Positions 4,599 to 12,834 of a DNA stretch of 32,688 nt are shown here, one piece after another (the stretch's first letter is position 1; each line of letters begins with the position of its first letter). The stretch is from Candidatus Beckwithbacteria bacterium (lineage in GTDB: Bacteria > Patescibacteriota > Microgenomatia > UBA1400 > UBA1449). The notes below the pieces were generated by a model. It did not search any database and was not told where the DNA came from. It saw only the letters and a program-made list of their open reading frames with translations. The translations under genes were made by a program, and so were the position numbers. Location of the stretch: positions 1 through 32,688 of the forward strand of contig JAAZND010000027.1 of the NCBI GenBank assembly GCA_012798485.1. Reading direction: 5' to 3'.

Positions 4599-5528
4599 TC
4601 AGCTAGTAATTTGTAAAATTTTTTCTTCAATTCCTTTTTGATCAAGTTGATAATAATGTAAAAGTTCATCTAAACTACGACTCGACTGACCAAATTCACC
4701 CTTAACTCCATGACAAAAAACCGGCACAGGAAATTTTTCTGCCAAAAACTGAGCAATCCTACTTCCCAGTCCGCCAATAATCTGATGATCTTCAATGGTT
4801 AAAACTTTTTTGGTTTTTTGCGCTGACTGTAAAACCAAATCTTCAGCCAAAGGTTTAAGGCTATTTAAATTGATCAACTCAACATCAAGCTTTCCTACTA
4901 AGTTATTCGCTGCTTGCAAAGCAAAATAAGCCATCGGGCCAGCGGTAATAACTGTTAAATCACTACCTGGTCTCAAAACCTCTACCTGACCAATTTTAAA
5001 ATCACTGGTAAAGTTGGGTAGTTCATATTTGGATAAACGAATATAAACTGGCCCTTTTTGCTTAAAGCTTTCAAAAACCGCCTGTTTAGCTTGATTGTAA
5101 TCAGCTGGAGTTAAAACAGTTAAATTAGGTAAAACTTGAGTAATGGCCAAATCTTCCAAAGCTTGATGACTTCCTCCATCAGCAAAATTAGAAAAACCAG
5201 TATGATGTCCAGCAATTTTAACATCCAAATTTTGCAAACAGACAGAAATTCTTAATTGATCCCAATTGCGGGCTGGAGAAAAACAAGCAAAGGAAGACAC
5301 AAAAACAGTTTTACCTGTCATTGCAATTCCAGCAGCAATTCCCATCATATTTTGTTCTGCCACCCCACATTGAACTGCACGATTGCTAAATTTATCAAAA
5401 AACCAATAGCAGCGAGTTGATTCTTTTAAATCTGCTGTAATTACAAAAACATCTCTTTCTTTTCCTCCTAATTCCAAAAGACCTTGACCAAATCCATCAC
5501 GTAAAGAATATTTTTTTTTAAATTTCAT
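4599..5528 (-). CDS. Transketolase, C-terminal subunit
   Basis: GVAEQNM, DGGSHQALED, PVYIR, EDHQIIGGLGS. Confidence 0.93.
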   Translation of the reverse strand: MKFKKKYSLRDGFGQGLLELGGKERDVFVITADLKESTRCYWFFDKFSNRAVQCGVAEQNMMGIAAGIAMTGKTVFVSSFACFSPARNWDQLRISVCLQNLDVKIAGHHTGFSNFADGGSHQALEDLAITQVLPNLTVLTPADYNQAKQAVFESFKQKGPVYIRLSKYELPNFTSDFKIGQVEVLRPGSDLTVITAGPMAYFALQAANNLVGKLDVELINLNSLKPLAEDLVLQSAQKTKKVLTIEDHQIIGGLGSRIAQFLAEKFPVPVFCHGVKGEFGQSSRSLDELLHYYQLDQKGIEEKILQITS

Positions 5529-6432
5529 AGTTAGTTCGTAATTCTTTTAAAGCTTTAATTAATTCTTCTTCCGTGGGAACTCTTCCATGCCACACGGGGT
5601 CATCTTGCATGAAGCTTACTCCTTTCCCCGCAATGGTATGAGCAATAATCATCACGCTATGGTTATAAATAGCTTTAGCCTTTAAATAGGTATCAATAAA
5701 ATCATCAATATCATTCCCATCACATTCCAAAACCAACAAACCAAAAGCTTCATATTTTTCTTTCAAAAATTCAATCGGCATAACTTCATAAGTATAGCCA
5801 TCTATTTGAATTTCATTGCGATCCAAAATAAAAATCAGATTATCCAATTTATATTTTTGGCAAAACATATAAGTTTCCCAAACTTGACCTTCTTGCTGCT
5901 CTCCATCAGAGGTAATACAGACAACATAATTTTGATCTCCATTTTGCTTATGCGAAAAAGCCATTCCAGCAGCTAAACTAACTCCTTGTCCCAAAGAGCC
6001 AGAAGTGTTTTCTACTCCAGGTAAGTTCTGATTTAGTAAATTGGAAGAGAAATCTTTAGCTTTACCACTCCAACGTAAATCATTGAAAGCAATATTCTCA
6101 GCTTTGTAATATCTTTGAAAATGAGGGTGACCCTGAAGAGAAGAACCAAAATCTCGAAGAGTTAACAATTTTTTGGTGGGAAAAAATCCTCTCTGAGCTA
6201 AGGTGGCATATAAAACTGGACAAATATGACCATTTGATAAAATTAATTTGTCTCGATCTTGCCTCCATGGGTTTTGCGGATCGATATTTAAAAGATAAAA
6301 ATAAAGAGCAGTAAAAATATCAGCCATGCCCAAGGCTCCAGCAGCATGACCAGTTTGAGCTTGATAAAGCATCTTTAAAATATCTTGACGGACAACGCTC
6401 GCTATACCTTCTAATTTGGGCAGATTATGCAT
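5518..6432 (-). CDS. Transketolase, N-terminal (TPP-binding) subunit
   Basis: RDKLILSNGH, LQGHP, SGSLGQG, SDGEQQEGQVWE..DRN, GKGVSF, WHG. Confidence 0.93.
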   Translation of the reverse strand: MHNLPKLEGIASVVRQDILKMLYQAQTGHAAGALGMADIFTALYFYLLNIDPQNPWRQDRDKLILSNGHICPVLYATLAQRGFFPTKKLLTLRDFGSSLQGHPHFQRYYKAENIAFNDLRWSGKAKDFSSNLLNQNLPGVENTSGSLGQGVSLAAGMAFSHKQNGDQNYVVCITSDGEQQEGQVWETYMFCQKYKLDNLIFILDRNEIQIDGYTYEVMPIEFLKEKYEAFGLLVLECDGNDIDDFIDTYLKAKAIYNHSVMIIAHTIAGKGVSFMQDDPVWHGRVPTEEELIKALKELRTNYEI

Positions 6433-6469
6433 AGCCCTATTTTATACTAAAAAAAGATTTAAGATAATG

Positions 6470-6475
6470 TATAAT
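6470..6475 (+). promoter_or_regulatory. -10 element upstream of fluoride riboswitch 1
   Basis: Perfect TATAAT 5 nt before the aptamer 5' end. Confidence 0.6.
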
Positions 6476-6480
6476 AATAT

Positions 6481-6543
6481 AAGCGATGAAGCTCGCTTAT
6501 GCGGTTAGCGCTAATAGCTTCTACTTTATAGTAGAGGCTTTTT
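6481..6543 (+). promoter_or_regulatory. Fluoride (crcB-class) riboswitch with terminator, upstream of the dynamin gene
   Basis: AAGCGA-TGAAGC-TCGCTT (P1 and loop), short P2 GCG/CGC, and 3' CTAATAGCTTCTAC (pseudoknot GAAGC/GCTTC) match consensus GGCGATGgNGTTCGCC...GCTRATGACNcCTAC. Overlapping terminator AGCTTCTAC-TTTATA-GTAGAGGCT-TTTT. Confidence 0.85.
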
Positions 6544-6547
6544 ATAT

Positions 6548-8305
6548 ATGAAACAAAAAAACATATTTACAGAATTTAAAACAATAATCGAAAACCTAAA
6601 AATAGTTGCAAACAGTAGTCAAAACACTCTAATAACTGAAGAAGTTAAAAAACTAGAAGTAAAAATTGCTAAAAAGGAATTTTTATTAATTATTTTAGGT
6701 CAATATAAAAGAGGTAAAAGCACTCTTATAAATGCTCTACTAGCGCAAAAATTATTGCCGACCTCAATAATACCCCTAACCTCCATTATCACAATAATAG
6801 CTTATGGAGATAAACCAAAGTGTGTTGTTGAATTTTTTCATAAAAAACCAAAAATACTTTCTATTTCTAAACTCCCAGAATTTATTACCGAGGGGAAAAA
6901 CCCAAAAAATATTAAAGGGGTTAAAAAGGTGTTTATAAATTTACCCAATGATTTTCTAAAACAAGGAATTCGCTTAGTAGATACCCCAGGAGTAGGCTCA
7001 ATTTATCAACACAACACTGATTTAAGCTATAAGTTTGTTAAACAAGCAGATATGGCAATTTTCTTAATAAGTCCAGACCCTCCTATAAGCCAAGCTGAAT
7101 TAAAATTTTTACAAACAATAAAAAATGATTTAGCTAAAATCATTTTTGTACAAAATAAAATTGACCAAATTGAAGCTGGAGATTTACAAAAATCTTTTCA
7201 ATTTAGCCAAAAAGTTATTAATGAGGTTTTTGATAATAAAAAAATAAGACTTTATCAAGTTTCTGCCAAAAAAGGACTCGAGGGTAAAATTGAAAACAAT
7301 CCCGATAAAATACAAACCAGCAATATTATAAAACTAGAAGAGCAGCTTAAAAATAAATTCCTTTCCAAAAAAGACAATATTTTAATATTATCCCTAATTA
7401 TCAAAATCCAAAATCTTATTAAAGAACTTGAATTTGAAATAAAATTAAAACAAGAATCTCTAAGATTGCCAATTGAAAAATTAAAAGAAAAAACTGAATT
7501 ATTCCATCAAGAAGCGTTAAAAATTAAACAAGAAAAAGAAGATAGTAATTATATTCTTCAAGGTCAAATAGAAAAAATAATCAAAGAAACTTTAGTTAAA
7601 GACCTGGAAGATTTACAAAAAATTGAAATCCCCAATTTAAGACTTATGTTTAAAAATTTTACCCAAACCAATCTTAATTTGTCTGGATCTGAGTTATTAA
7701 AAACATTTAATCAGTTTATCGAAAAAACAATAAAAAATATCTTTAAGCAATGGCGTAAAGAAGAAGAAAAAAAGCTACAAAAAATTTTAAATAAAATTAT
7801 CATTCGCTTTTCTCATCAAAACAATCTTCGTATCCAAAAAATTAAACAAATATCATCTGAAATTTTTAATTTTGAGATTAATAAAATTGAAGATAATCTT
7901 CTATTTGCTAAAGAATTCGAATTTAGATTTGCCTTTGATGAATATAAAATTAACCTTGACTTTTATAGTCCACTAATTTCAAAATTACCAAAATTTCTCT
8001 CTCATAAATTGCTTTATCCCAAAATGGAAAGGGATTTATTGAATGAGCTCGATCGGCATTGTGGTCGTTGTCGTTATGATTTTAGTCAAAGAATTAATAA
8101 AAGTATCCTTGATTATCATAACAAATTAGAAAGAGACTTAGAACAAGCTATTAAAAATATTGAGATAATTTTGATAAAAACCATAGAACAAAAAGGAGAG
8201 CAAGAACAACAAGAGAAGATTATAAGCCTTAAGCTCAATCAACAAAGGTTAATGCTTAACAAAATAAAGAAAAAATTATTAGAAATCAATCGCTATGAAC
8301 TTTAA
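6548..8305 (+). CDS. Bacterial dynamin-like GTPase
   Basis: G1 GQYKRGKS, G2 LPTSIIPLT, G3 DTPG, G4 NKID, VSAK, followed by a long helical coiled-coil trunk. Confidence 0.9.
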   Translation: MKQKNIFTEFKTIIENLKIVANSSQNTLITEEVKKLEVKIAKKEFLLIILGQYKRGKSTLINALLAQKLLPTSIIPLTSIITIIAYGDKPKCVVEFFHKKPKILSISKLPEFITEGKNPKNIKGVKKVFINLPNDFLKQGIRLVDTPGVGSIYQHNTDLSYKFVKQADMAIFLISPDPPISQAELKFLQTIKNDLAKIIFVQNKIDQIEAGDLQKSFQFSQKVINEVFDNKKIRLYQVSAKKGLEGKIENNPDKIQTSNIIKLEEQLKNKFLSKKDNILILSLIIKIQNLIKELEFEIKLKQESLRLPIEKLKEKTELFHQEALKIKQEKEDSNYILQGQIEKIIKETLVKDLEDLQKIEIPNLRLMFKNFTQTNLNLSGSELLKTFNQFIEKTIKNIFKQWRKEEEKKLQKILNKIIIRFSHQNNLRIQKIKQISSEIFNFEINKIEDNLLFAKEFEFRFAFDEYKINLDFYSPLISKLPKFLSHKLLYPKMERDLLNELDRHCGRCRYDFSQRINKSILDYHNKLERDLEQAIKNIEIILIKTIEQKGEQEQQEKIISLKLNQQRLMLNKIKKKLLEINRYEL

Positions 8306-8495
8306 TTTTATAACCGTTATTATTGGATTAATCTTTTCACCTCTTGCCGCTATTATGGCTTTTATTATTACTTATCAAGAATACTCACATCACTTTTCAG
8401 ATAAGAAAGAGCCTTTAAAATTATCTAGTCAAGCAGCCTTAATGACATTAATCTTTTTTTTAATTCTCTGTTTAATTATTGGTTTGTTAATTTAG
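8295..8495 (+). CDS. Small two-TM membrane protein, translationally coupled to the dynamin gene
   Basis: Start overlaps the dynamin end by 11 nt. Two hydrophobic helices flank the polar loop TYQEYSHHFSDKKEP. Confidence 0.75.
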   Translation: MNFNFITVIIGLIFSPLAAIMAFIITYQEYSHHFSDKKEPLKLSSQAALMTLIFFLILCLIIGLLI

Positions 8496-8508
8496 ACTAT
8501 TGCTACTT

Positions 8509-9381
8509 TTATTCAAATAATGGTAAATCATATTTTTCTAAATGTTTTAAAATAGTCACCGCCTGATAAGTTTGCTCAATATTGGCAATCCCAATAAATT
8601 GGGAGCGAGCAAAGCCACCATTTCCTTTCTGGCAAGCAATTAAAAAAGATAATAAAGAAGATTGTCTGGGAATTGAAATCTTTAATAAAATAAAACTCTC
8701 AACTGCCCAAAAATATTCCTCTAAATAATTAGCTCTCTCTATTTGTCTTTTTAAAAAATTTATAGTTTTTTTTAGTTTTACTAAGGGATAGTTAAGTTTT
8801 TTAAGAATTTTTAAGGCATAATATGTTGTAGATAATTCTGAACCTTTTATATTTCCAAAACCACCATCTGTATTTTCCAACGATAAAATGAAGTCAATAA
8901 TATTTTGATTTGCTTCATTTATATTAAAATTTTTACATAAAAAGGTTAAATAATATAAATCTTTTACTTCTCCTTCAACCAAGTCTAGGTAAAGCGTGTT
9001 GACTGAATTATCAGATAGTAAAAATTTTGTTTCAGCTTTAGCCTTAAATTTCTTTTTTTTAAAAATGTTTTTATTTGTAGTATTTTCTAAAATAAAAGGG
9101 GAGTATTTTTTAAATTCACTAATATCAATTTTTAATGCTTTATATGTTTGAACTGCAAAAAACAAAGATGAAATACACTTTAAATTTCCCTCCTTATCTT
9201 CATTTTTAAAAAAACGCATAATTTCGCTTATGGGTATTTGTTTACTATTAAGTAGTTTAAGCGTTTCCACAGCACACATGGTGTCTAAGGCAGATGATGG
9301 TGTAACTCTGGCAAAAAAATAACCACCATCCGAAAGATGGCGAGCCTGGAGATATTGAATAATGTGATTTTTATTAAACAT
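8509..9381 (-). CDS. Prenyltransferase/squalene-cyclase-repeat (alpha/alpha barrel) protein
   Basis: Three PFTB-like repeats: YLQARHLSDGGY..DTMCAV, FILSLENTDGGFG..TTYYAL, FLIACQKGNGGFA..QTYQAV. Confidence 0.8.
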   Translation of the reverse strand: MFNKNHIIQYLQARHLSDGGYFFARVTPSSALDTMCAVETLKLLNSKQIPISEIMRFFKNEDKEGNLKCISSLFFAVQTYKALKIDISEFKKYSPFILENTTNKNIFKKKKFKAKAETKFLLSDNSVNTLYLDLVEGEVKDLYYLTFLCKNFNINEANQNIIDFILSLENTDGGFGNIKGSELSTTYYALKILKKLNYPLVKLKKTINFLKRQIERANYLEEYFWAVESFILLKISIPRQSSLLSFLIACQKGNGGFARSQFIGIANIEQTYQAVTILKHLEKYDLPLFE

Positions 9382-9464
9382 AAAAAAGCTCCTACTAAAT
9401 TTTATAATAGTAGAAGCTATTAGTTTCTGTTTTCGGTAGAAACAATTAGGTGAGCCTCATCACA
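9382..9464 (-). promoter_or_regulatory. Fluoride (crcB-class) riboswitch with terminator, upstream of the barrel-protein gene
   Basis: Minus strand GTGA-TGAGGC-TCAC (P1), P2 GTTTCT/AGAAAC, 3' CTAATAGCTTCTAC. Terminator AGCTTCTACTA-N10-TAGTAGGAGCT-TTTTT abuts the ATG. Confidence 0.87.
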
Positions 9465-9532
9465 ATAATATTTTTATATTATCATAAAAAACTAGTCTTT
9501 TGCAAAATTAAGTTCATAAATAAGTTTAAAGA

Positions 9533-10171
9533 CTAAAAAAGTTTTGCCAGTCTCTGAAGTCTAAAAAGGTTTTTGGGGTAATTTTGCCAAAGATAAGAAT
9601 TAACCGCCACACCATCAGCTCTCGCCTGAAAACATTGTTTGGCACTATCAAAGTTTATTCCACCGTCAATAATAATTTCCGCTTTTTTTCGGCAGTTTTG
9701 CCGTACATAGTTTATTTTCTCTAAAACTGAAGAATTAAATTTTTGATGAGCAAACCCAGCTTTTACAGCCATTAATAAAATCTGATCAAATTGATTTAAT
9801 AAAGGAACTTTAACCTTGAAAATATCTGTATCCAAATCAATTGCAATTCCTGTTCTTATTTTTTTCTCCCTTAATTCTTGTAAAAAATTTTTTACTTCTT
9901 TTAGTTTTTCAAGGTGGATGGTAATCAAACTCACTTTATTTTCAAGGCAAATTGCAATCCAATCCATGGGGTTTTCCACCATCAAATGAACATCACAATT
10001 GATGTTTTCAAAACTCATTAACCATTGATTGGGAAGAATAGTTTGATTATCCGCAAAGTTTTTTTCAATAACGTCAATTTGAATTCTGTTACCATATTGC
10101 AGGGATTTTAAAATTTTATGACTAAAAGCAGGATATTCTTTTTCTAGAATAGTTGGGATTATTTGTTTCAT
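9533..10171 (-). CDS. rpe: Ribulose-phosphate 3-epimerase
   Basis: IIPTIL, QIDV, DVHLMVENP, LLMAVKAGF..Q, DGGIN. Confidence 0.88.
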   Translation of the reverse strand: MKQIIPTILEKEYPAFSHKILKSLQYGNRIQIDVIEKNFADNQTILPNQWLMSFENINCDVHLMVENPMDWIAICLENKVSLITIHLEKLKEVKNFLQELREKKIRTGIAIDLDTDIFKVKVPLLNQFDQILLMAVKAGFAHQKFNSSVLEKINYVRQNCRKKAEIIIDGGINFDSAKQCFQARADGVAVNSYLWQNYPKNLFRLQRLAKLF

Positions 10172-10183
10172 AAGAAAAAATTT

Positions 10184-11380
10184 TTATTGCTCTAAAATTT
10201 CAATTCCTGGTAAATTACCTTTTTCAATATATTCAAGCATAGCTCCCCCACCAGTGGAGATATGGGTAATATTTTCTAAGTGATTATGTCCCTCAATGCT
10301 TGAAAGTGTATCTCCACCACCCACAATACTGATCAAATGTTTATGAGCAATAATAGCTTCGTAAACTGCTTCTGTGCCTCTAGCAAAAGCCTTAACCTCA
10401 TTAACTCCCATTGGGCCATTCCAAATTACAGTTTTAGCCTCGGCAATAATGCGAGCATATTCTCTCTGGGTTTGTCTGCCAATATCTAAAATTTGAAATT
10501 GTTTTGGCATTTCCTCTATTACCACTTCTCCAATTTTCACTCCAGAAGACAAGTTTCCAACAATAGCATCAGTAGGCATAAAAAGCTTGGTGTCAGCTCT
10601 TGTGGCTTTCCAGATTAAGCTCTGGCAAATACGTAAGGATTCCGGAGAATACATAGATCTACCAATATGAAAACCAAAGGCTTTAAGAAAAGTATTGGCT
10701 ACTCCTCCACCCAACAAAACATAATCAGCCATGGTCATTAATTTTTCCAAAACTGGAATTTTGGTAGCAGCCTTAGCCCCACCCACAATTGCTACCAGTG
10801 GTCTTTGTGTTTCTTTAATTGCCTTACCTATCATTTCTATCTCTGTTTGTAGTAAATAACCAGCATAAGAAGGCAGTATTTCTGCAATTCCCACCACACT
10901 ACTATGAGCTCGATGACAGGAACCAAAAGCATCATTGACAAAAATATCTCCCAGTTGCGCTAATTTTGCTGAAAAACTGCGGGAATTAATTTCTTCACCC
11001 AGTTCAAATCTCACGTTTTCAAGCATAATTACCTCACCATTTTGACAGTCTAAAATTTTCTCTCTTTCAGCAAGACTATGATACTTTTCAGCAAAAATCA
11101 CATTTCTTTTAATTTGTTTTTGCAAATACAAAGCAATCGGGCGCAAAGAAAATTCTTCACTTGCCACACCAGGCTCTGGTCTTCCAAAATGAGACATAAT
11201 AACCAATCTTTTGGGTTTTTGCTTCAAAATATAATCAATTGTTTTTAAAGACAAACCAATACGCGTATCATCTTTTACCCTATATTCTCCATTTTCTTTT
11301 TTGACTGGAACATTGTAATCAACTCTTAAAACCACCCCCTTGTTCTCCAACTTAATATCTTGAATTTTTCTAAGTTTCAT
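10184..11380 (-). CDS. pgk: Phosphoglycerate kinase
   Basis: RVDYNVP, SHFGRP, LENVRF, NDAFGSCHRAHSS, WNGPMG, STGGGAMLEY. Confidence 0.97.
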   Translation of the reverse strand: MKLRKIQDIKLENKGVVLRVDYNVPVKKENGEYRVKDDTRIGLSLKTIDYILKQKPKRLVIMSHFGRPEPGVASEEFSLRPIALYLQKQIKRNVIFAEKYHSLAEREKILDCQNGEVIMLENVRFELGEEINSRSFSAKLAQLGDIFVNDAFGSCHRAHSSVVGIAEILPSYAGYLLQTEIEMIGKAIKETQRPLVAIVGGAKAATKIPVLEKLMTMADYVLLGGGVANTFLKAFGFHIGRSMYSPESLRICQSLIWKATRADTKLFMPTDAIVGNLSSGVKIGEVVIEEMPKQFQILDIGRQTQREYARIIAEAKTVIWNGPMGVNEVKAFARGTEAVYEAIIAHKHLISIVGGGDTLSSIEGHNHLENITHISTGGGAMLEYIEKGNLPGIEILEQ

Positions 11381-11523: not shown

Positions 11524-12834
11524 ATGCAACAACACCCTATTCCTCAGAATGTTTCTAAATATCAGTTTCGTCTTATAGGCGATATGACCATCAAACAGTT
11601 TGCTTTTTTAGGTGGTGGCATTATCCTAGCTTTCTTGGCTTATAAATTTCCCCTGCTTCCCACCATTTTAAGGCTGCCATTTGCTTTTGCTTTTGCTGCA
11701 TCTGGGGCAATGATTGCATTTGTGCCTTACGAAGAAAGAACGCTGGATATTTGGATTGTTAATTTTTTTAAATCCATTTATACTCCCACTCAATTTTTAT
11801 GGAAAAAGAGACTGGAATTGCCAGATTATTTTAATTTTAAAAAAAAATACAAACATGATTATGTGAGATCAGAGTTTTCCCAAAATGATAAAACTCAACT
11901 AGAAAAATACATTAACTCCCTCAACGCCAACCACGATGATCCTTTTAGCAAGGTGGAAAATCAAAAGATACAACAGATCAATAATTTGTTTAATCCAAAC
12001 CCTGTAAGTTTTGCCAATATTTCTAATCAATATTTTAAAACTAGCAACAACACCCCTCACGCTAACAGCTCCCTCATTAGGCCATCTCAACAGCCAATAG
12101 TAAGAATTCCTTCCCTAACTCAGGTAAGTCGTCCCACAACAGCTCCAGTTCCACAGGCAAAAATCAATAATTTACCCCCAACTCATGATCAAGTGGCTAA
12201 AACTATACAAGACCCCAAGTCACAACCAGCAATAACTATAAATAATCCAGTTAGATCAGCTATCAATATTCCAAGACAACAAGTTGTTTTTAAACAACCC
12301 TTTGCTCAAAAACAAACACCACAAATACCCTCTCAAAACACCACTCCCGATATATTGCCAAACCCAGTTGTAAAACCCAAGCAAGAAACAGTGATAAAAA
12401 TAGATACAACCCAACAAATCAACCAGAAACCCACAATAAAAATTCAGGCAGCACCATCACTCACTCCACCTATAAAAATGAAAAGTCTTTTTCCTGATAA
12501 AAACCCTAAAAAAATAGAACCACAATACCTATCAGATATCCAAATGCCTATTAATCCAGATGTTGCCAATACCATTGTGGGTATCACCATCGATACCCAC
12601 AACAAATTAATTACTAATGCTATTCTGGAGGTCTTGGATAAAAACAACCTTCCTATAAGAGCTTTTAAATCAAATGCTGTGGGACAGTTTTTTGTCTCTA
12701 CTCCAATAAAAAATGGCACCTATACAATAAACACTGAGCATCCAGATTATATTTTTGATACAATAAAGTTTGAGGCCAGCGGTAAAATTATCGCTCCTCT
12801 TAAAGTTGTGGGGAAACCCAAAAACAATCTATAA
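11524..12834 (+). CDS. PrgI-family membrane protein with Pro/Gln-rich linker and C-terminal beta-sandwich domain
   Basis: HPIPQNV..YQFRLIGDMTIKQF followed by two TMs (PrgI), a low-complexity P/Q/T linker, and a carboxypeptidase-regulatory-like end (G.....NAILEV....RAFKSNAVGQF....NGTY). Confidence 0.8.
   Translation: MQQHPIPQNVSKYQFRLIGDMTIKQFAFLGGGIILAFLAYKFPLLPTILRLPFAFAFAASGAMIAFVPYEERTLDIWIVNFFKSIYTPTQFLWKKRLELPDYFNFKKKYKHDYVRSEFSQNDKTQLEKYINSLNANHDDPFSKVENQKIQQINNLFNPNPVSFANISNQYFKTSNNTPHANSSLIRPSQQPIVRIPSLTQVSRPTTAPVPQAKINNLPPTHDQVAKTIQDPKSQPAITINNPVRSAINIPRQQVVFKQPFAQKQTPQIPSQNTTPDILPNPVVKPKQETVIKIDTTQQINQKPTIKIQAAPSLTPPIKMKSLFPDKNPKKIEPQYLSDIQMPINPDVANTIVGITIDTHNKLITNAILEVLDKNNLPIRAFKSNAVGQFFVSTPIKNGTYTINTEHPDYIFDTIKFEASGKIIAPLKVVGKPKNNL

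What the first reader, a model, noticed from the sequence alone, without database searches (positions are those of the whole stretch)
6470..9470. Candidate new fluoride-response system: twin fluoride riboswitches driving a dynamin-like GTPase, a micro-membrane protein and an alpha/alpha-barrel protein
Seen: both ends of this convergent three-gene block carry a crcB-class aptamer (6481-6524 +, 9464-9410 -). The two share an identical 15-mer, CTAATAGCTTCTACT, but differ in P1 with compensatory pairing (GCGA/TCGC vs GTGA/TCAC) and in P2, and each has a terminator overlapping the pseudoknot strand just before the ATG. Established: fluoride riboswitches are ON switches that usually control exporters (Fluc/CrcB, CLC-F) or fluoride-sensitive and stress proteins such as enolase, pyrophosphatase and USP; bacterial dynamin-like proteins remodel or repair membranes. 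No Fluc or CLC-F is recognisable in this window. Inference: all three genes are fluoride-induced parts of one module that acts by membrane remodelling or a new export route. I do not know of a description of it, but I cannot search the literature.
Basis: partly seen in the sequence, partly recalled or inferred. Interest (0 to 1): 0.92.

Follow-up and report, generated by a model that had tools for sequence, protein, structure and literature searches.

The report
Fluoride-riboswitch island with three uncharacterised genes
Two diverged but genuine-looking fluoride riboswitches switch on an inserted block of three genes (a dynamin-like GTPase, a tiny membrane protein and a ring-shaped protein of unknown activity) that turn up under fluoride riboswitches in many other bacteria and archaea, pointing to an unstudied part of the cellular response to fluoride.

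Summary
Both ends of the convergent block carry a crcB-type aptamer. RF01734 scores are 28.1 and 22.6 bits, below the gathering score of 34, but these are the two best hits in the 1.17-Mb genome. Both have P1, an intact pseudoknot and a terminator/SD-sequestering hairpin. The 3.1-kb block is an AT-rich insertion between rpe and tktN, which are adjacent in 5 of 5 same-family relatives.

The main result is comparative. Of 149 loci encoding relatives of the toroid protein with enough upstream sequence, 113 have a fluoride aptamer within 400 nt upstream and 131 have one upstream on the same strand. In 5 of 16 loci tested, that leader passes Rfam's own threshold. Dynamin-like homologues sit beside the toroid gene in 43 of 160 loci, and small-protein homologues occur in 28. 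Neighbours include enolase, pyrophosphatase, Na+/H+ antiporter, MFS, USP and CrcB.

In the window's order, the only other aptamer of this type drives the only CrcB gene found.

Fluoride control and regulon membership are therefore well supported. What the proteins do is unknown. I found no paper linking them to fluoride. Membrane remodelling or a new export route remains untested.

The parts
6433..9532 (.). Inserted block: two riboswitch leaders plus three genes, lying between tktN and rpe
   Evidence: In 5 of 5 same-family relatives pgk-rpe-tktN-tktC are contiguous, with about 13-55 nt between rpe and tktN. GC is 0.23-0.29 inside the block against 0.30-0.39 in the flanks. Contigs of run X1 bridge both junctions.
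6441..6468 (+). Promoter-like site of leader 1 (TTTATA, 16 nt spacer, GATAAT)
   Evidence: This is a consensus match only. Such sites are not enriched in the region (24 found against 17.2 +/- 4.4 in shuffles).
6473..6530 (+). Fluoride-type aptamer 1. P1 is 6482-6485 with 6494-6497. The second stem is 6501-6503 with 6509-6511. The pseudoknot is 6488-6493 with 6516-6521.
   Evidence: RF01734 28.1 bits, E 2.3e-6. Adapted model R1 gives 42.8 bits, but this sequence was in R1's training set. Fold.
6516..6543 (+). Terminator/sequestrator hairpin 1 (10-bp stem, T-run). Its 5' arm is the pseudoknot 3' strand. Its 3' arm holds GAGG, which ends 10 nt before the ATG.
6548..8305 (+). Dynamin-like GTPase, 585 aa, of the BDLP/IniA/mitofusin class
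   Evidence: Dynamin_N 93.4 bits. G1, G3 and G4 motifs are conserved in at least 28 of 31 homologues. PDB profile search: Nostoc BDLP 7e-43, IniA 6.9e-25. The AF2 model (pLDDT 81.9) shows a G domain, a helical stalk and a low-confidence aromatic tip loop at 448-471.
8295..8495 (+). 66-aa protein with two hydrophobic stretches, overlapping the GTPase gene by 11 nt
   Evidence: Its family of 29 members (28 other loci plus the window) has a conserved loop, (F/Y)LI(T/S)YxEY, followed in most members by xHH(F/Y)..KK. No Pfam or NCBIfam family above cut-off.
8509..9381 (-). 290-aa alpha/alpha-toroid protein (TOR) of unknown activity
   Evidence: PF00432 54.3 bits. AF2 pLDDT 91.7. Best PDB matches are prenyltransferase beta subunits at TM 0.4-0.69 and about 15% identity. 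No invariant Cys or His among 37 relatives.
9382..9418 (-). Terminator/sequestrator hairpin 2 (11-bp stem, 10-nt loop, T-run). Its 3' arm holds AGGAG at 9393-9389.
   Evidence: Not called by the simple terminator scan, whose loop limit is 8.
9404..9473 (-). Fluoride-type aptamer 2. P1 is 9463-9460 with 9453-9450. The second stem is 9443-9438 with 9428-9423. The pseudoknot is 9458-9453 with 9418-9413.
   Evidence: RF01734 22.6 bits, E 1.8e-4. R1 gives 43.7 bits (in the training set). Fold.
9478..9506 (-). Promoter-like site of leader 2 (TTTGCA, 17 nt spacer, GATAAT)
   Evidence: consensus match only.

Best explanation
The block is a horizontally acquired fluoride-response island. Each of its two convergent transcription units starts with a diverged fluoride (crcB-motif) riboswitch of ON design.

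Without fluoride, the strand AGCUUCUAC pairs downstream to form a hairpin with a U-run. That hairpin also buries the Shine-Dalgarno sequence, so transcription stops and translation is blocked. With fluoride, the same strand is held in the aptamer pseudoknot, the hairpin cannot form, and the genes are expressed.

The outputs are three proteins. One is a BDLP/IniA-class dynamin-like GTPase with an aromatic tip loop, translationally coupled to a 66-aa two-helix membrane protein. The other is a cytosolic alpha/alpha-toroid protein that lacks the zinc ligands of prenyltransferases. All three families are recurrent, so far undescribed members of the fluoride riboswitch regulon in CPR bacteria and Chloroflexi. 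The toroid protein, the core member, extends to Bathyarchaeia.

Shown here: the RNA architecture, the insertion, and the conserved association with aptamers and with known fluoride genes.

Inferred: that fluoride is the ligand, and that the proteins mitigate fluoride stress at or near the membrane. The GTPase and mini-protein would act in membrane remodelling or repair, by analogy with stress-induced IniA. The toroid protein would be an independent binding or enzymatic factor. I put about 0.85 on fluoride-controlled regulon membership and about 0.25 on the membrane-remodelling part.
For: RNA:
- RF01734 is the best family for both leaders, and they are the two best hits in the genome.
- P1, the pseudoknot and an overlapping terminator are present in both.
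- In an alignment of 135 unique aptamers from these loci, the GAUG of the P1 loop and the A, U, C, C, U, A, C positions of the 3' tail are invariant, including the A and U that correspond to the A40-U48 linchpin named in PMC11077080.
- 96.4% of P1 and pseudoknot cells pair, and 6 of 10 pairs show double changes.

Ligand:
- Aptamers of the same subtype stand before CrcB (L014, and G117, which was not in the training set), pyrophosphatase (L095), Na+/H+ exchangers, MFS and MutS-like genes.
- The G117 crcB leader has the same P1, pseudoknot and platform as window leader 1.
- Toroid-gene leaders pass Rfam's gathering score in 5 of 16 loci scanned: 50.9, 50.7, 49.8, 45.2 and 41.5 bits.

Association:
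- 103 of 161 good aptamers lie directly before toroid genes, 12 before GTPase homologues and 8 before the small protein.
- 113 of 149 loci have an aptamer within 400 nt upstream of the toroid gene, 131 of 149 have one upstream on the same strand, and 18 have none.
- A GTPase homologue is present in 43 of 160 loci, and the small protein in 28 other loci.
- Starting from the GTPase instead, the one other strong hit among 200 further genomes of the class of G205 has aptamer-TOR-aptamer-GTPase-small protein.
- Neighbours include enolase (16 loci), MFS (52), Na+/H+ exchanger (15) and USP (11). Enolase, Na+/H+ antiporters and pyrophosphatase are named as riboswitch-associated in the passages of PMC11139923 that I read.

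Insertion.

GTPase integrity and class.
Against: - Neither leader reaches Rfam's gathering score of 34.
- No binding, termination or expression data exist. No RNA run holds the block.
- My aptamer set was selected by a script that required pairing, so the percentage paired is partly circular. R1 was trained on that set.
- The loci were collected through the toroid protein, so the counts describe that family only. The GTPase-first sample has just two strong hits, one of them the centre genome.
- 18 of 149 toroid loci show no aptamer.
- 117 of 160 loci lack the GTPase, so the three genes are not an obligate unit.
- Much of the shared aptamer subtype could reflect transfer of gene plus leader as one cassette, so kin are not independent.
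- Nothing shows what any of the three proteins does, or that they raise fluoride tolerance.
- Leader 1 has no wobble pair in its pseudoknot. PMC11077080 reports that a weak (wobble) top pair is needed for switching. Here that pair is U-A, which I did not see tested in the passages read.
Confidence: 0.8

Rival explanations
1. The three proteins are not resistance factors. They are fluoride-sensitive targets that are over-produced to compensate for inhibition, as is proposed for enolase and pyrophosphatase. The GTPase in particular would be poisoned by metal-fluoride transition-state mimics.
For: The review passages in PMC11139923 describe over-expression of inhibited enzymes as one explanation for riboswitch-linked enolase and phosphatases. 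Enolase, pyrophosphatase and phosphoglycerate-mutase-type genes share these loci. That GTPases bind aluminium and magnesium fluorides is established knowledge (recalled).
Against: Compensation makes sense only for enzymes the cell needs anyway. Here the genes sit behind ON switches and so should be silent without fluoride. They are absent from 200 other genomes of the order and the GTPase subfamily from 400 other genomes of the phylum. They arrived by insertion. The toroid protein has no recognisable phosphoryl-transfer site.
Confidence: 0.12
2. The functional core is a new fluoride export or permeability route. The 2-TM mini-protein, which elsewhere is usually paired with an MFS transporter, forms or assists a channel or transporter. 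The GTPase and toroid protein are accessory.
For: MFS is the commonest neighbour (52 loci). It is tightly linked to the small protein in both gene orders, and in Dehalococcoidia the pair has its own aptamer. The small protein has a conserved polar loop between two hydrophobic helices. Six of 10 other toroid-carrying genomes show neither CrcB nor CLC.
Against: The window genome has no homologue of that MFS, so here the mini-protein would have to act alone. CrcB is nearly absent from the whole order regardless of the module. CrcB or CLC coexist with the toroid gene in 4 of 10 genomes. No transport evidence of any kind exists.
Confidence: 0.12
3. The two leaders are decayed or re-purposed relics: ordinary attenuators, or aptamers for another ligand. 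The similarity to the fluoride motif is then without regulatory meaning in this genome.
For: Both score below Rfam's gathering threshold. Leader 2 has a mismatch at the base of P1 in the Rfam alignment. The base that the Rfam consensus shows as G before AUG in the 3' tail is A in both.
Against: The same A occurs in a toroid leader that passes the gathering score (L095, 41.5 bits) and in 29 of 161 good aptamers. All invariant positions of the 135-aptamer alignment are kept. Pseudoknot pairing is intact in both. A near-identical design drives CrcB in G117. Two chance matches flanking one inserted block, both upstream of families that carry the motif elsewhere, is very unlikely.
Confidence: 0.06

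Closest known systems
Fluoride riboswitch (crcB motif, Rfam RF01734), transcriptional ON type as studied in Bacillus cereus
   Same: P1 with an 8-nt loop beginning AUG, a second stem, a 6-bp pseudoknot between the loop and the 3' tail, conserved tail positions, and a terminator whose 5' arm overlaps the pseudoknot strand. The mechanism is as described in the abstract and passages of PMC11077080.
   Different: Scores are below the curated threshold. The top pseudoknot pair is U-A (120 of 135 in this set) where B. cereus has a U.G wobble, and the next pair is C-G. The linker is short. The hairpin also sequesters the SD and ends a few nt before the start codon. The genes controlled are not among the known cargo.
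IniA / IniBAC of mycobacteria and Nostoc BDLP (bacterial dynamin-like proteins)
   Same: Dynamin_N G domain with G1-G4 motifs, a helical stalk, and profile matches to BDLP (7e-43) and IniA (6.9e-25). As with IniA, whose PDB name is 'isoniazid inducible gene protein', expression is tied to a chemical stress.
   Different: About 585 aa and at most weakly similar outside the G domain. Induction would be by an RNA switch for an inorganic anion. The partner genes are a 2-TM mini-protein and a toroid protein, not IniB/IniC. No membrane activity has been shown.
Protein prenyltransferase beta subunits and class II terpene cyclases (alpha/alpha toroid, PF00432)
   Same: Fold and repeat signature: PF00432 at 54.3 bits, with Foldseek top hits to GGTase and FTase beta subunits.
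   Different: Similarity is loose (TM 0.4-0.69, rmsd 5-9 A, about 15% identity). There is no invariant Cys or His that could make the zinc site. It is a single 290-aa domain with no alpha-subunit gene nearby. The context is fluoride stress, not lipid modification.
Known fluoride regulon cargo (Fluc/CrcB, CLC-F, Na+/H+ antiporter, enolase, pyrophosphatase)
   Same: Same type of leader, and these genes share loci with the three families elsewhere.
   Different: None of this known cargo is under a riboswitch in this genome. It has one enolase with no aptamer and no CrcB, CLC or module-type MFS.

Membership tests
Fluoride riboswitch (RF01734) | Reaches Rfam's curated gathering score of 34 bits. 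This is an operational cut-off, not a structural feature. | tested here: not met
   28.1 and 22.6 bits. The whole-window gathering scan found nothing. Homologous leaders of the same gene family pass in 5 of 16 loci scanned.
Fluoride riboswitch (RF01734) | P1 helix closing an 8-nt loop, plus a 6-bp pseudoknot from that loop to the 3' tail | tested here: met
   Both leaders pair at 4 of 4 (leader 1) or 3-4 of 4 (leader 2) P1 positions and at 6 of 6 pseudoknot positions. There is covariation across 135 aptamers, with a selection caveat.
Fluoride riboswitch (RF01734) | Conserved unpaired nucleotides of the ligand pocket and the A-U linchpin in the 3' tail | tested here: met
   Every invariant column of alignment A2 is present in both window leaders. 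The linchpin is named in PMC11077080. The assignment of the Mg-coordinating phosphates is recalled.
Fluoride riboswitch (RF01734) | Expression platform mutually exclusive with the pseudoknot (ON switch) | tested here: met
Fluoride riboswitch (RF01734) | Binds fluoride selectively | not testable with these tools
   The only evidence is indirect: the same subtype drives CrcB and pyrophosphatase genes.
Bacterial dynamin-like protein | Dynamin-type G domain with G1-G4 motifs | tested here: met
   Dynamin_N 93.4 bits against a cut-off of 27. GxxxxGKS, DTPG and NKxD are conserved.
Bacterial dynamin-like protein | Helical neck/trunk with a membrane-binding tip | tested here: inconclusive
   The AF2 model has long helices at 275-439 and 482-584 and a low-confidence aromatic loop at 448-471. 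There is no TM segment. Membrane binding was not tested.
Bacterial dynamin-like protein | GTP-dependent membrane remodelling | not testable with these tools
   -
Protein prenyltransferase beta subunit | Alpha/alpha toroid fold with PFTB repeats | tested here: met
Protein prenyltransferase beta subunit | Zinc site of Asp, Cys and His (recalled as defining) | tested here: not met
   No Cys or His is among the invariant or 90%-conserved columns of 37 relatives. It is therefore not filed as a prenyltransferase.
Fluc/CrcB or CLC-F exporter | A PF02537 or PF00654 domain in the block or genome | tested here: not met
   No match in the genome at E <= 1. Genome completeness is 95.8%.

The most novel reading that the evidence does not exclude
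The toroid protein, with the dynamin-like GTPase and the 2-TM mini-protein as bacterial add-ons, is an exporter-independent way of coping with fluoride that is shared by bacteria and archaea. It could work by binding fluoride or metal-fluoride species, or by changing the membrane so that less HF gets in or damaged membrane is shed. In this tiny genome it would be the only fluoride defence.
Probability: 0.22. Interest if true: 0.85.

Novelty: new variant of a known kind. Interest (0 to 1): 0.62.

Why it matters
Fluoride riboswitches are a reliable pointer to genes that matter under fluoride stress. That is how the Fluc and CLC-F exporters were recognised (PMC7266159, passages read).

Here the pointer falls on three families with no assigned function. 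One of them, the toroid protein, is the first gene after the switch in over a hundred loci from CPR bacteria, Chloroflexi and Bathyarchaeia. A dynamin-like GTPase under control of an anion-sensing RNA has not been described in the papers I could search.

If these proteins raise fluoride tolerance, they would reveal a defence beyond export, pH control and enzyme over-production. This is relevant to organisms engineered for organofluorine chemistry (topic of PMC11139923). It would also give bacterial dynamins a defined physiological trigger.

The work further shows that Rfam's model under-detects two aptamer subtypes: the AT-rich CPR type and the Chloroflexi type with an extra hairpin.

Tried and rejected
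- **Rfam hits in 60 relatives.** Three weak hits (18-22 bits) lie in what reads as coding sequence. I dismissed them as chance.
- **Direct homologue searches in the order.** 0 of 200 other genomes for either protein. This showed rarity but gave no context.
- **Module replaces a missing exporter.** Rejected as an argument, because CrcB is above cut-off in only 1 of 120 other genomes of the order, and exporters coexist with the toroid gene in 4 of 10 genomes.
- **The U-A/GCUC pseudoknot subtype marks a new ligand class tied to the toroid gene.** Rejected, because the same subtype precedes Na+/H+ exchanger, MFS, MutS-like, GAF, pyrophosphatase and (in G117) CrcB genes.
- **Toroid protein is a prenyltransferase.** Rejected for lack of zinc ligands.
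- **Mobile-element ends.** No convincing terminal repeats were found.
- **NCBIfam and the protein atlas.** They gave no functional name.
- **Sequencing runs.** 15 holders were listed and no RNA holder among them. The laid contigs only show presence and bridging.
- **Papers not held.** Baker et al. 2012 and Ren et al. 2012 are not held.

Full report
**What is in the window**

The region holds a 585-aa gene (6548-8305, +) and a 66-aa gene (8295-8495, +) that overlaps it by 11 nt. A convergent 290-aa gene lies at 8509-9381 (-). Pfam assigns Dynamin_N (2.1e-26) to the first and the prenyltransferase alpha-alpha toroid (1.9e-14) to the third. The 66-aa protein matches nothing above cut-off, and NCBIfam adds no functional name. 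The flanks are the N-terminal transketolase subunit (5518-6432, -) and ribulose-phosphate 3-epimerase (9533-10171, -).

**The two leaders**

At Rfam's gathering threshold the window shows only a tRNA. With permissive filters, RF01734 is the best family in each leader. Leader 1 (6473-6530 +) scores 28.1 bits, E 2.3e-6. Leader 2 (9404-9473 -) scores 22.6 bits, E 1.8e-4. The gathering score is 34. In the whole genome (1.17 Mb, 117 contigs, 95.8% complete) they rank first and second, and the next hit scores 12.3 bits.

Each leader has three elements: P1, a second stem, and a 5' pseudoknot strand (GAAGCU or GAGGCU) complementary to AGCUUC in the tail. The tail is also the 5' arm of a strong hairpin followed by a U-run and, a few bases later, the ATG. 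The 3' arm contains GAGG or AGGAG, so the hairpin should both terminate transcription and hide the ribosome-binding site. The shared 15-mer is confirmed. Promoter-like sites lie just upstream of both leaders, but these are consensus matches only.

**The block is an insertion**

All five same-family genomes have pgk-rpe-tktN-tktC in a row, with about 13-55 nt between rpe and tktN. In the window, 3.1 kb lies between them. That stretch is 23-29% GC against 30-39% in the flanks.

Neither the GTPase nor the toroid protein was found in 200 other genomes of the order. The GTPase subfamily was not found in 400 other genomes of the phylum. Contigs of a public run bridge both junctions without differences, though that run may be the window's own source.

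**Relatives of the toroid protein**

The word-indexed search gave 41 unnamed relatives. A profile search of 1.84 billion representatives gave 239 at E <= 1e-30 and 1202 at E <= 1e-10.

Scans of genome and metagenome contigs with the alignment returned 160 loci. They come from CPR groups, many Dehalococcoidia and other Chloroflexi, many Bathyarchaeia, Syntrophales and others. A script that requires the aptamer core, pseudoknot pairing and P1 found 163 candidates in these loci plus the window, of which 161 are good.

The first ORF downstream of the 161 good aptamers is:
- a toroid homologue in 103 cases;
- a Na+/H+ exchanger in 12;
- a GTPase homologue in 12;
- a GAF protein in 9;
- the small membrane protein in 8;
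- an MFS transporter in 4;
- a MutS-like protein in 2;
- single cases of CrcB, inorganic pyrophosphatase, a phosphoglycerate-mutase-type phosphatase, TerC, MoxR, HEAT and NUDIX proteins.

Counting by locus, 149 have at least 150 nt upstream of the toroid gene. Of these, 100 have a script-detected aptamer within 400 nt. A covariance model built from the aptamers adds 13, giving 113 of 149. A further 18 have an aptamer farther upstream on the same strand, and 18 have none.

**An independent check with the curated model**

I gave 16 of the 160 loci to Rfam at its gathering threshold. The leader of the toroid gene passed in five: L045 50.9, L044 50.7, L100 49.8, L099 45.2 and L095 41.5 bits. Leaders of CrcB, pyrophosphatase, Na+/H+ exchanger, GAF and MFS genes passed too. 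The L095 leader has the same A-for-G change and the same U-A top pseudoknot pair as the window leaders, so these features do not disqualify an aptamer. In the other 11 loci the toroid leader stayed below threshold or was not available.

**Covariation**

In the alignment of 135 unique aptamers, the AUG of the P1 loop and seven tail positions are invariant. For P1 plus the pseudoknot, 96.4% of cells pair. Six of 10 pairs have changes on both sides, and sliding the partner by one to three columns drops pairing to 38-56%. Because the script selected for pairing, the percentage is inflated. The double changes and the invariant unpaired positions are the more telling part.

**The ligand**

The pseudoknot subtype seen here is U-A on top, where the Rfam consensus has U.G. 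It precedes every gene class in the set, so it is not specific to the toroid gene.

In the window's own order, the adapted model found one aptamer among 140 other genomes. It lies directly upstream of the only CrcB gene found above cut-off among 120 genomes of that order. That leader was not in the training set. It has the same P1, pseudoknot, hairpin and spacing to the ATG as window leader 1.

PMC11077080 (abstract and passages read) reports that the top pseudoknot pair must be weak for switching. A U.G wobble works, and G-C gives constitutive read-through. U-A is weak but I did not see it tested there.

**Co-occurrence of the three genes**

By tblastn, a GTPase homologue lies in 43 of 160 loci, most often immediately after the toroid gene. 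By clustering of ORFs, the GTPase is in 47 other loci and the small protein in 28.

A recurrent arrangement in CPR-like contigs is aptamer-TOR-GTPase-MFS-small protein-enolase. Chloroflexi have aptamer-TOR-aptamer-GTPase, followed by an unknown 249-aa protein, enolase and the small protein. Bathyarchaeia have aptamer-TOR-DUF6062, often followed by NUDIX, and no GTPase.

I also started from the GTPase profile. Among 200 further genomes of the class of G205, the one other strong hit has aptamer-TOR-aptamer-GTPase-small protein. A weak generic dynamin hit has none of these.

The window genome lacks the MFS. Its single enolase has no aptamer. So its whole detectable fluoride regulon is these three genes.

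**The proteins**

*GTPase.* It keeps G1, G3 and G4 in at least 28 of 31 homologues and has no TM segment. Its profile matches Nostoc BDLP (7e-43), the Campylobacter DLP pair, IniA (6.9e-25) and mitofusins. The model (pLDDT 81.9) shows a G domain, a long helical stalk and a low-confidence tip loop (448-471). That loop is F/Y-rich in CPR-type sequences and W-rich in Chloroflexi, as expected of a membrane-inserting paddle. Membrane insertion is an inference.

*Small protein.* It has two hydrophobic helices and a conserved loop.

*Toroid protein.* It models confidently (pLDDT 91.7). It resembles prenyltransferase beta subunits only loosely and has no conserved Cys or His. I therefore do not file it as a prenyltransferase.

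**Exporters**

No CrcB or CLC was found in the window genome, but CrcB is almost absent from the whole order. Of ten other toroid-carrying genomes, two have CrcB, two have a CLC and six have neither. Their completeness is not given. The module is therefore neither a strict substitute for exporters nor dependent on them.

**Literature**

These searches found nothing relevant:
- 'fluoride riboswitch' with dynamin (0 papers);
- with prenyltransferase (1, irrelevant);
- with GTPase and hypothetical (1, irrelevant);
- fluoride plus riboswitch plus dynamin-like (0);
- with Chloroflexi (1, irrelevant);
- a broader regulon search.

Passages of the 2024 review PMC11139923 list exporters, Na+/H+ antiporters, pyrophosphatase, HAD phosphatases, enolase, formate hydrogen lyase and chorismate mutase. 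Passages of PMC2864571 and PMC7266159 name mutS, K+/Cl- transport and formate hydrogen lyase, and use the term 'super-regulon'. The founding paper and all supplements could not be read, so an earlier listing of these families cannot be excluded.

**Verdict**

The riboswitch observation is confirmed, and the claim of a co-regulated, recurrent gene set is supported and widened. The functional claim (membrane remodelling or export) is open. I rate it a new variant of a known kind: ordinary fluoride-riboswitch logic pointing at effectors that nobody seems to have studied.

Noticed in passing
L023:5859-5927 and 6845-6913; L139:5833-5901 and 6860-6931; many Dehalococcoidia loci in alignment A2: Chloroflexi/Dehalococcoidia aptamers carry an extra hairpin between P1 and the second stem. 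Rfam's gathering scan missed both L023 aptamers and two of three in L139, so this subtype seems under-detected by RF01734.
   Followed up: partly
L099:2070-3498, L102:3532-4960, L166:4035-5491 and others: An MFS transporter is the commonest neighbour (52 loci). It is tightly linked to the 2-TM small protein in either order, and in Dehalococcoidia the pair has its own fluoride aptamer. It is a candidate fluoride-related transporter pair that is absent from the window genome.
   Followed up: partly
L075:6792-7505, L044, L045 and 25 further loci: DUF6062 follows the toroid gene directly in 28 loci, mostly Bathyarchaeia, often with a NUDIX gene next.
   Followed up: no
L124:1-12783: One 12.8-kb metagenome locus holds six fluoride aptamers, standing before phosphoglycerate-mutase-type, TerC, Na+/H+ exchanger-USP, toroid and GTPase-enolase units.
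   Followed up: no
L164:4966-5673, L138:5135-5800, L124:8858-9607, L166:6746-7090, L168:1748-3298: Further proteins directly under or next to fluoride aptamers have no known fluoride link: a GAF-domain protein (9 aptamers), an unknown 249-aa family, a 114-aa family without Pfam match, and a MutS domain V protein.
   Followed up: no
window 8496-8508: The stop codons of the two convergent units are only 13 nt apart with no terminator between them. Read-through from either side would make antisense RNA to the other.
   Followed up: no
window 6469-6498 and 9408-9574: In run X1 a contig of depth about 200 matches 30 nt of leader 1 with two differences, against about 7 for the window's organism. Depth also rises over leader 2. 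This suggests a far more abundant organism in that sample with a near-identical aptamer half.
   Followed up: no
window 4599-6432 and 9533-11380: Transketolase is split into separate N- and C-terminal genes. Together with rpe and pgk it forms a conserved gene string in the family, and the island interrupts it.
   Followed up: partly
window 11524-12834: A 436-aa ORF with an N-terminal hydrophobic region and a long Pro/Gln/Thr-rich low-complexity stretch. Not analysed.
   Followed up: no
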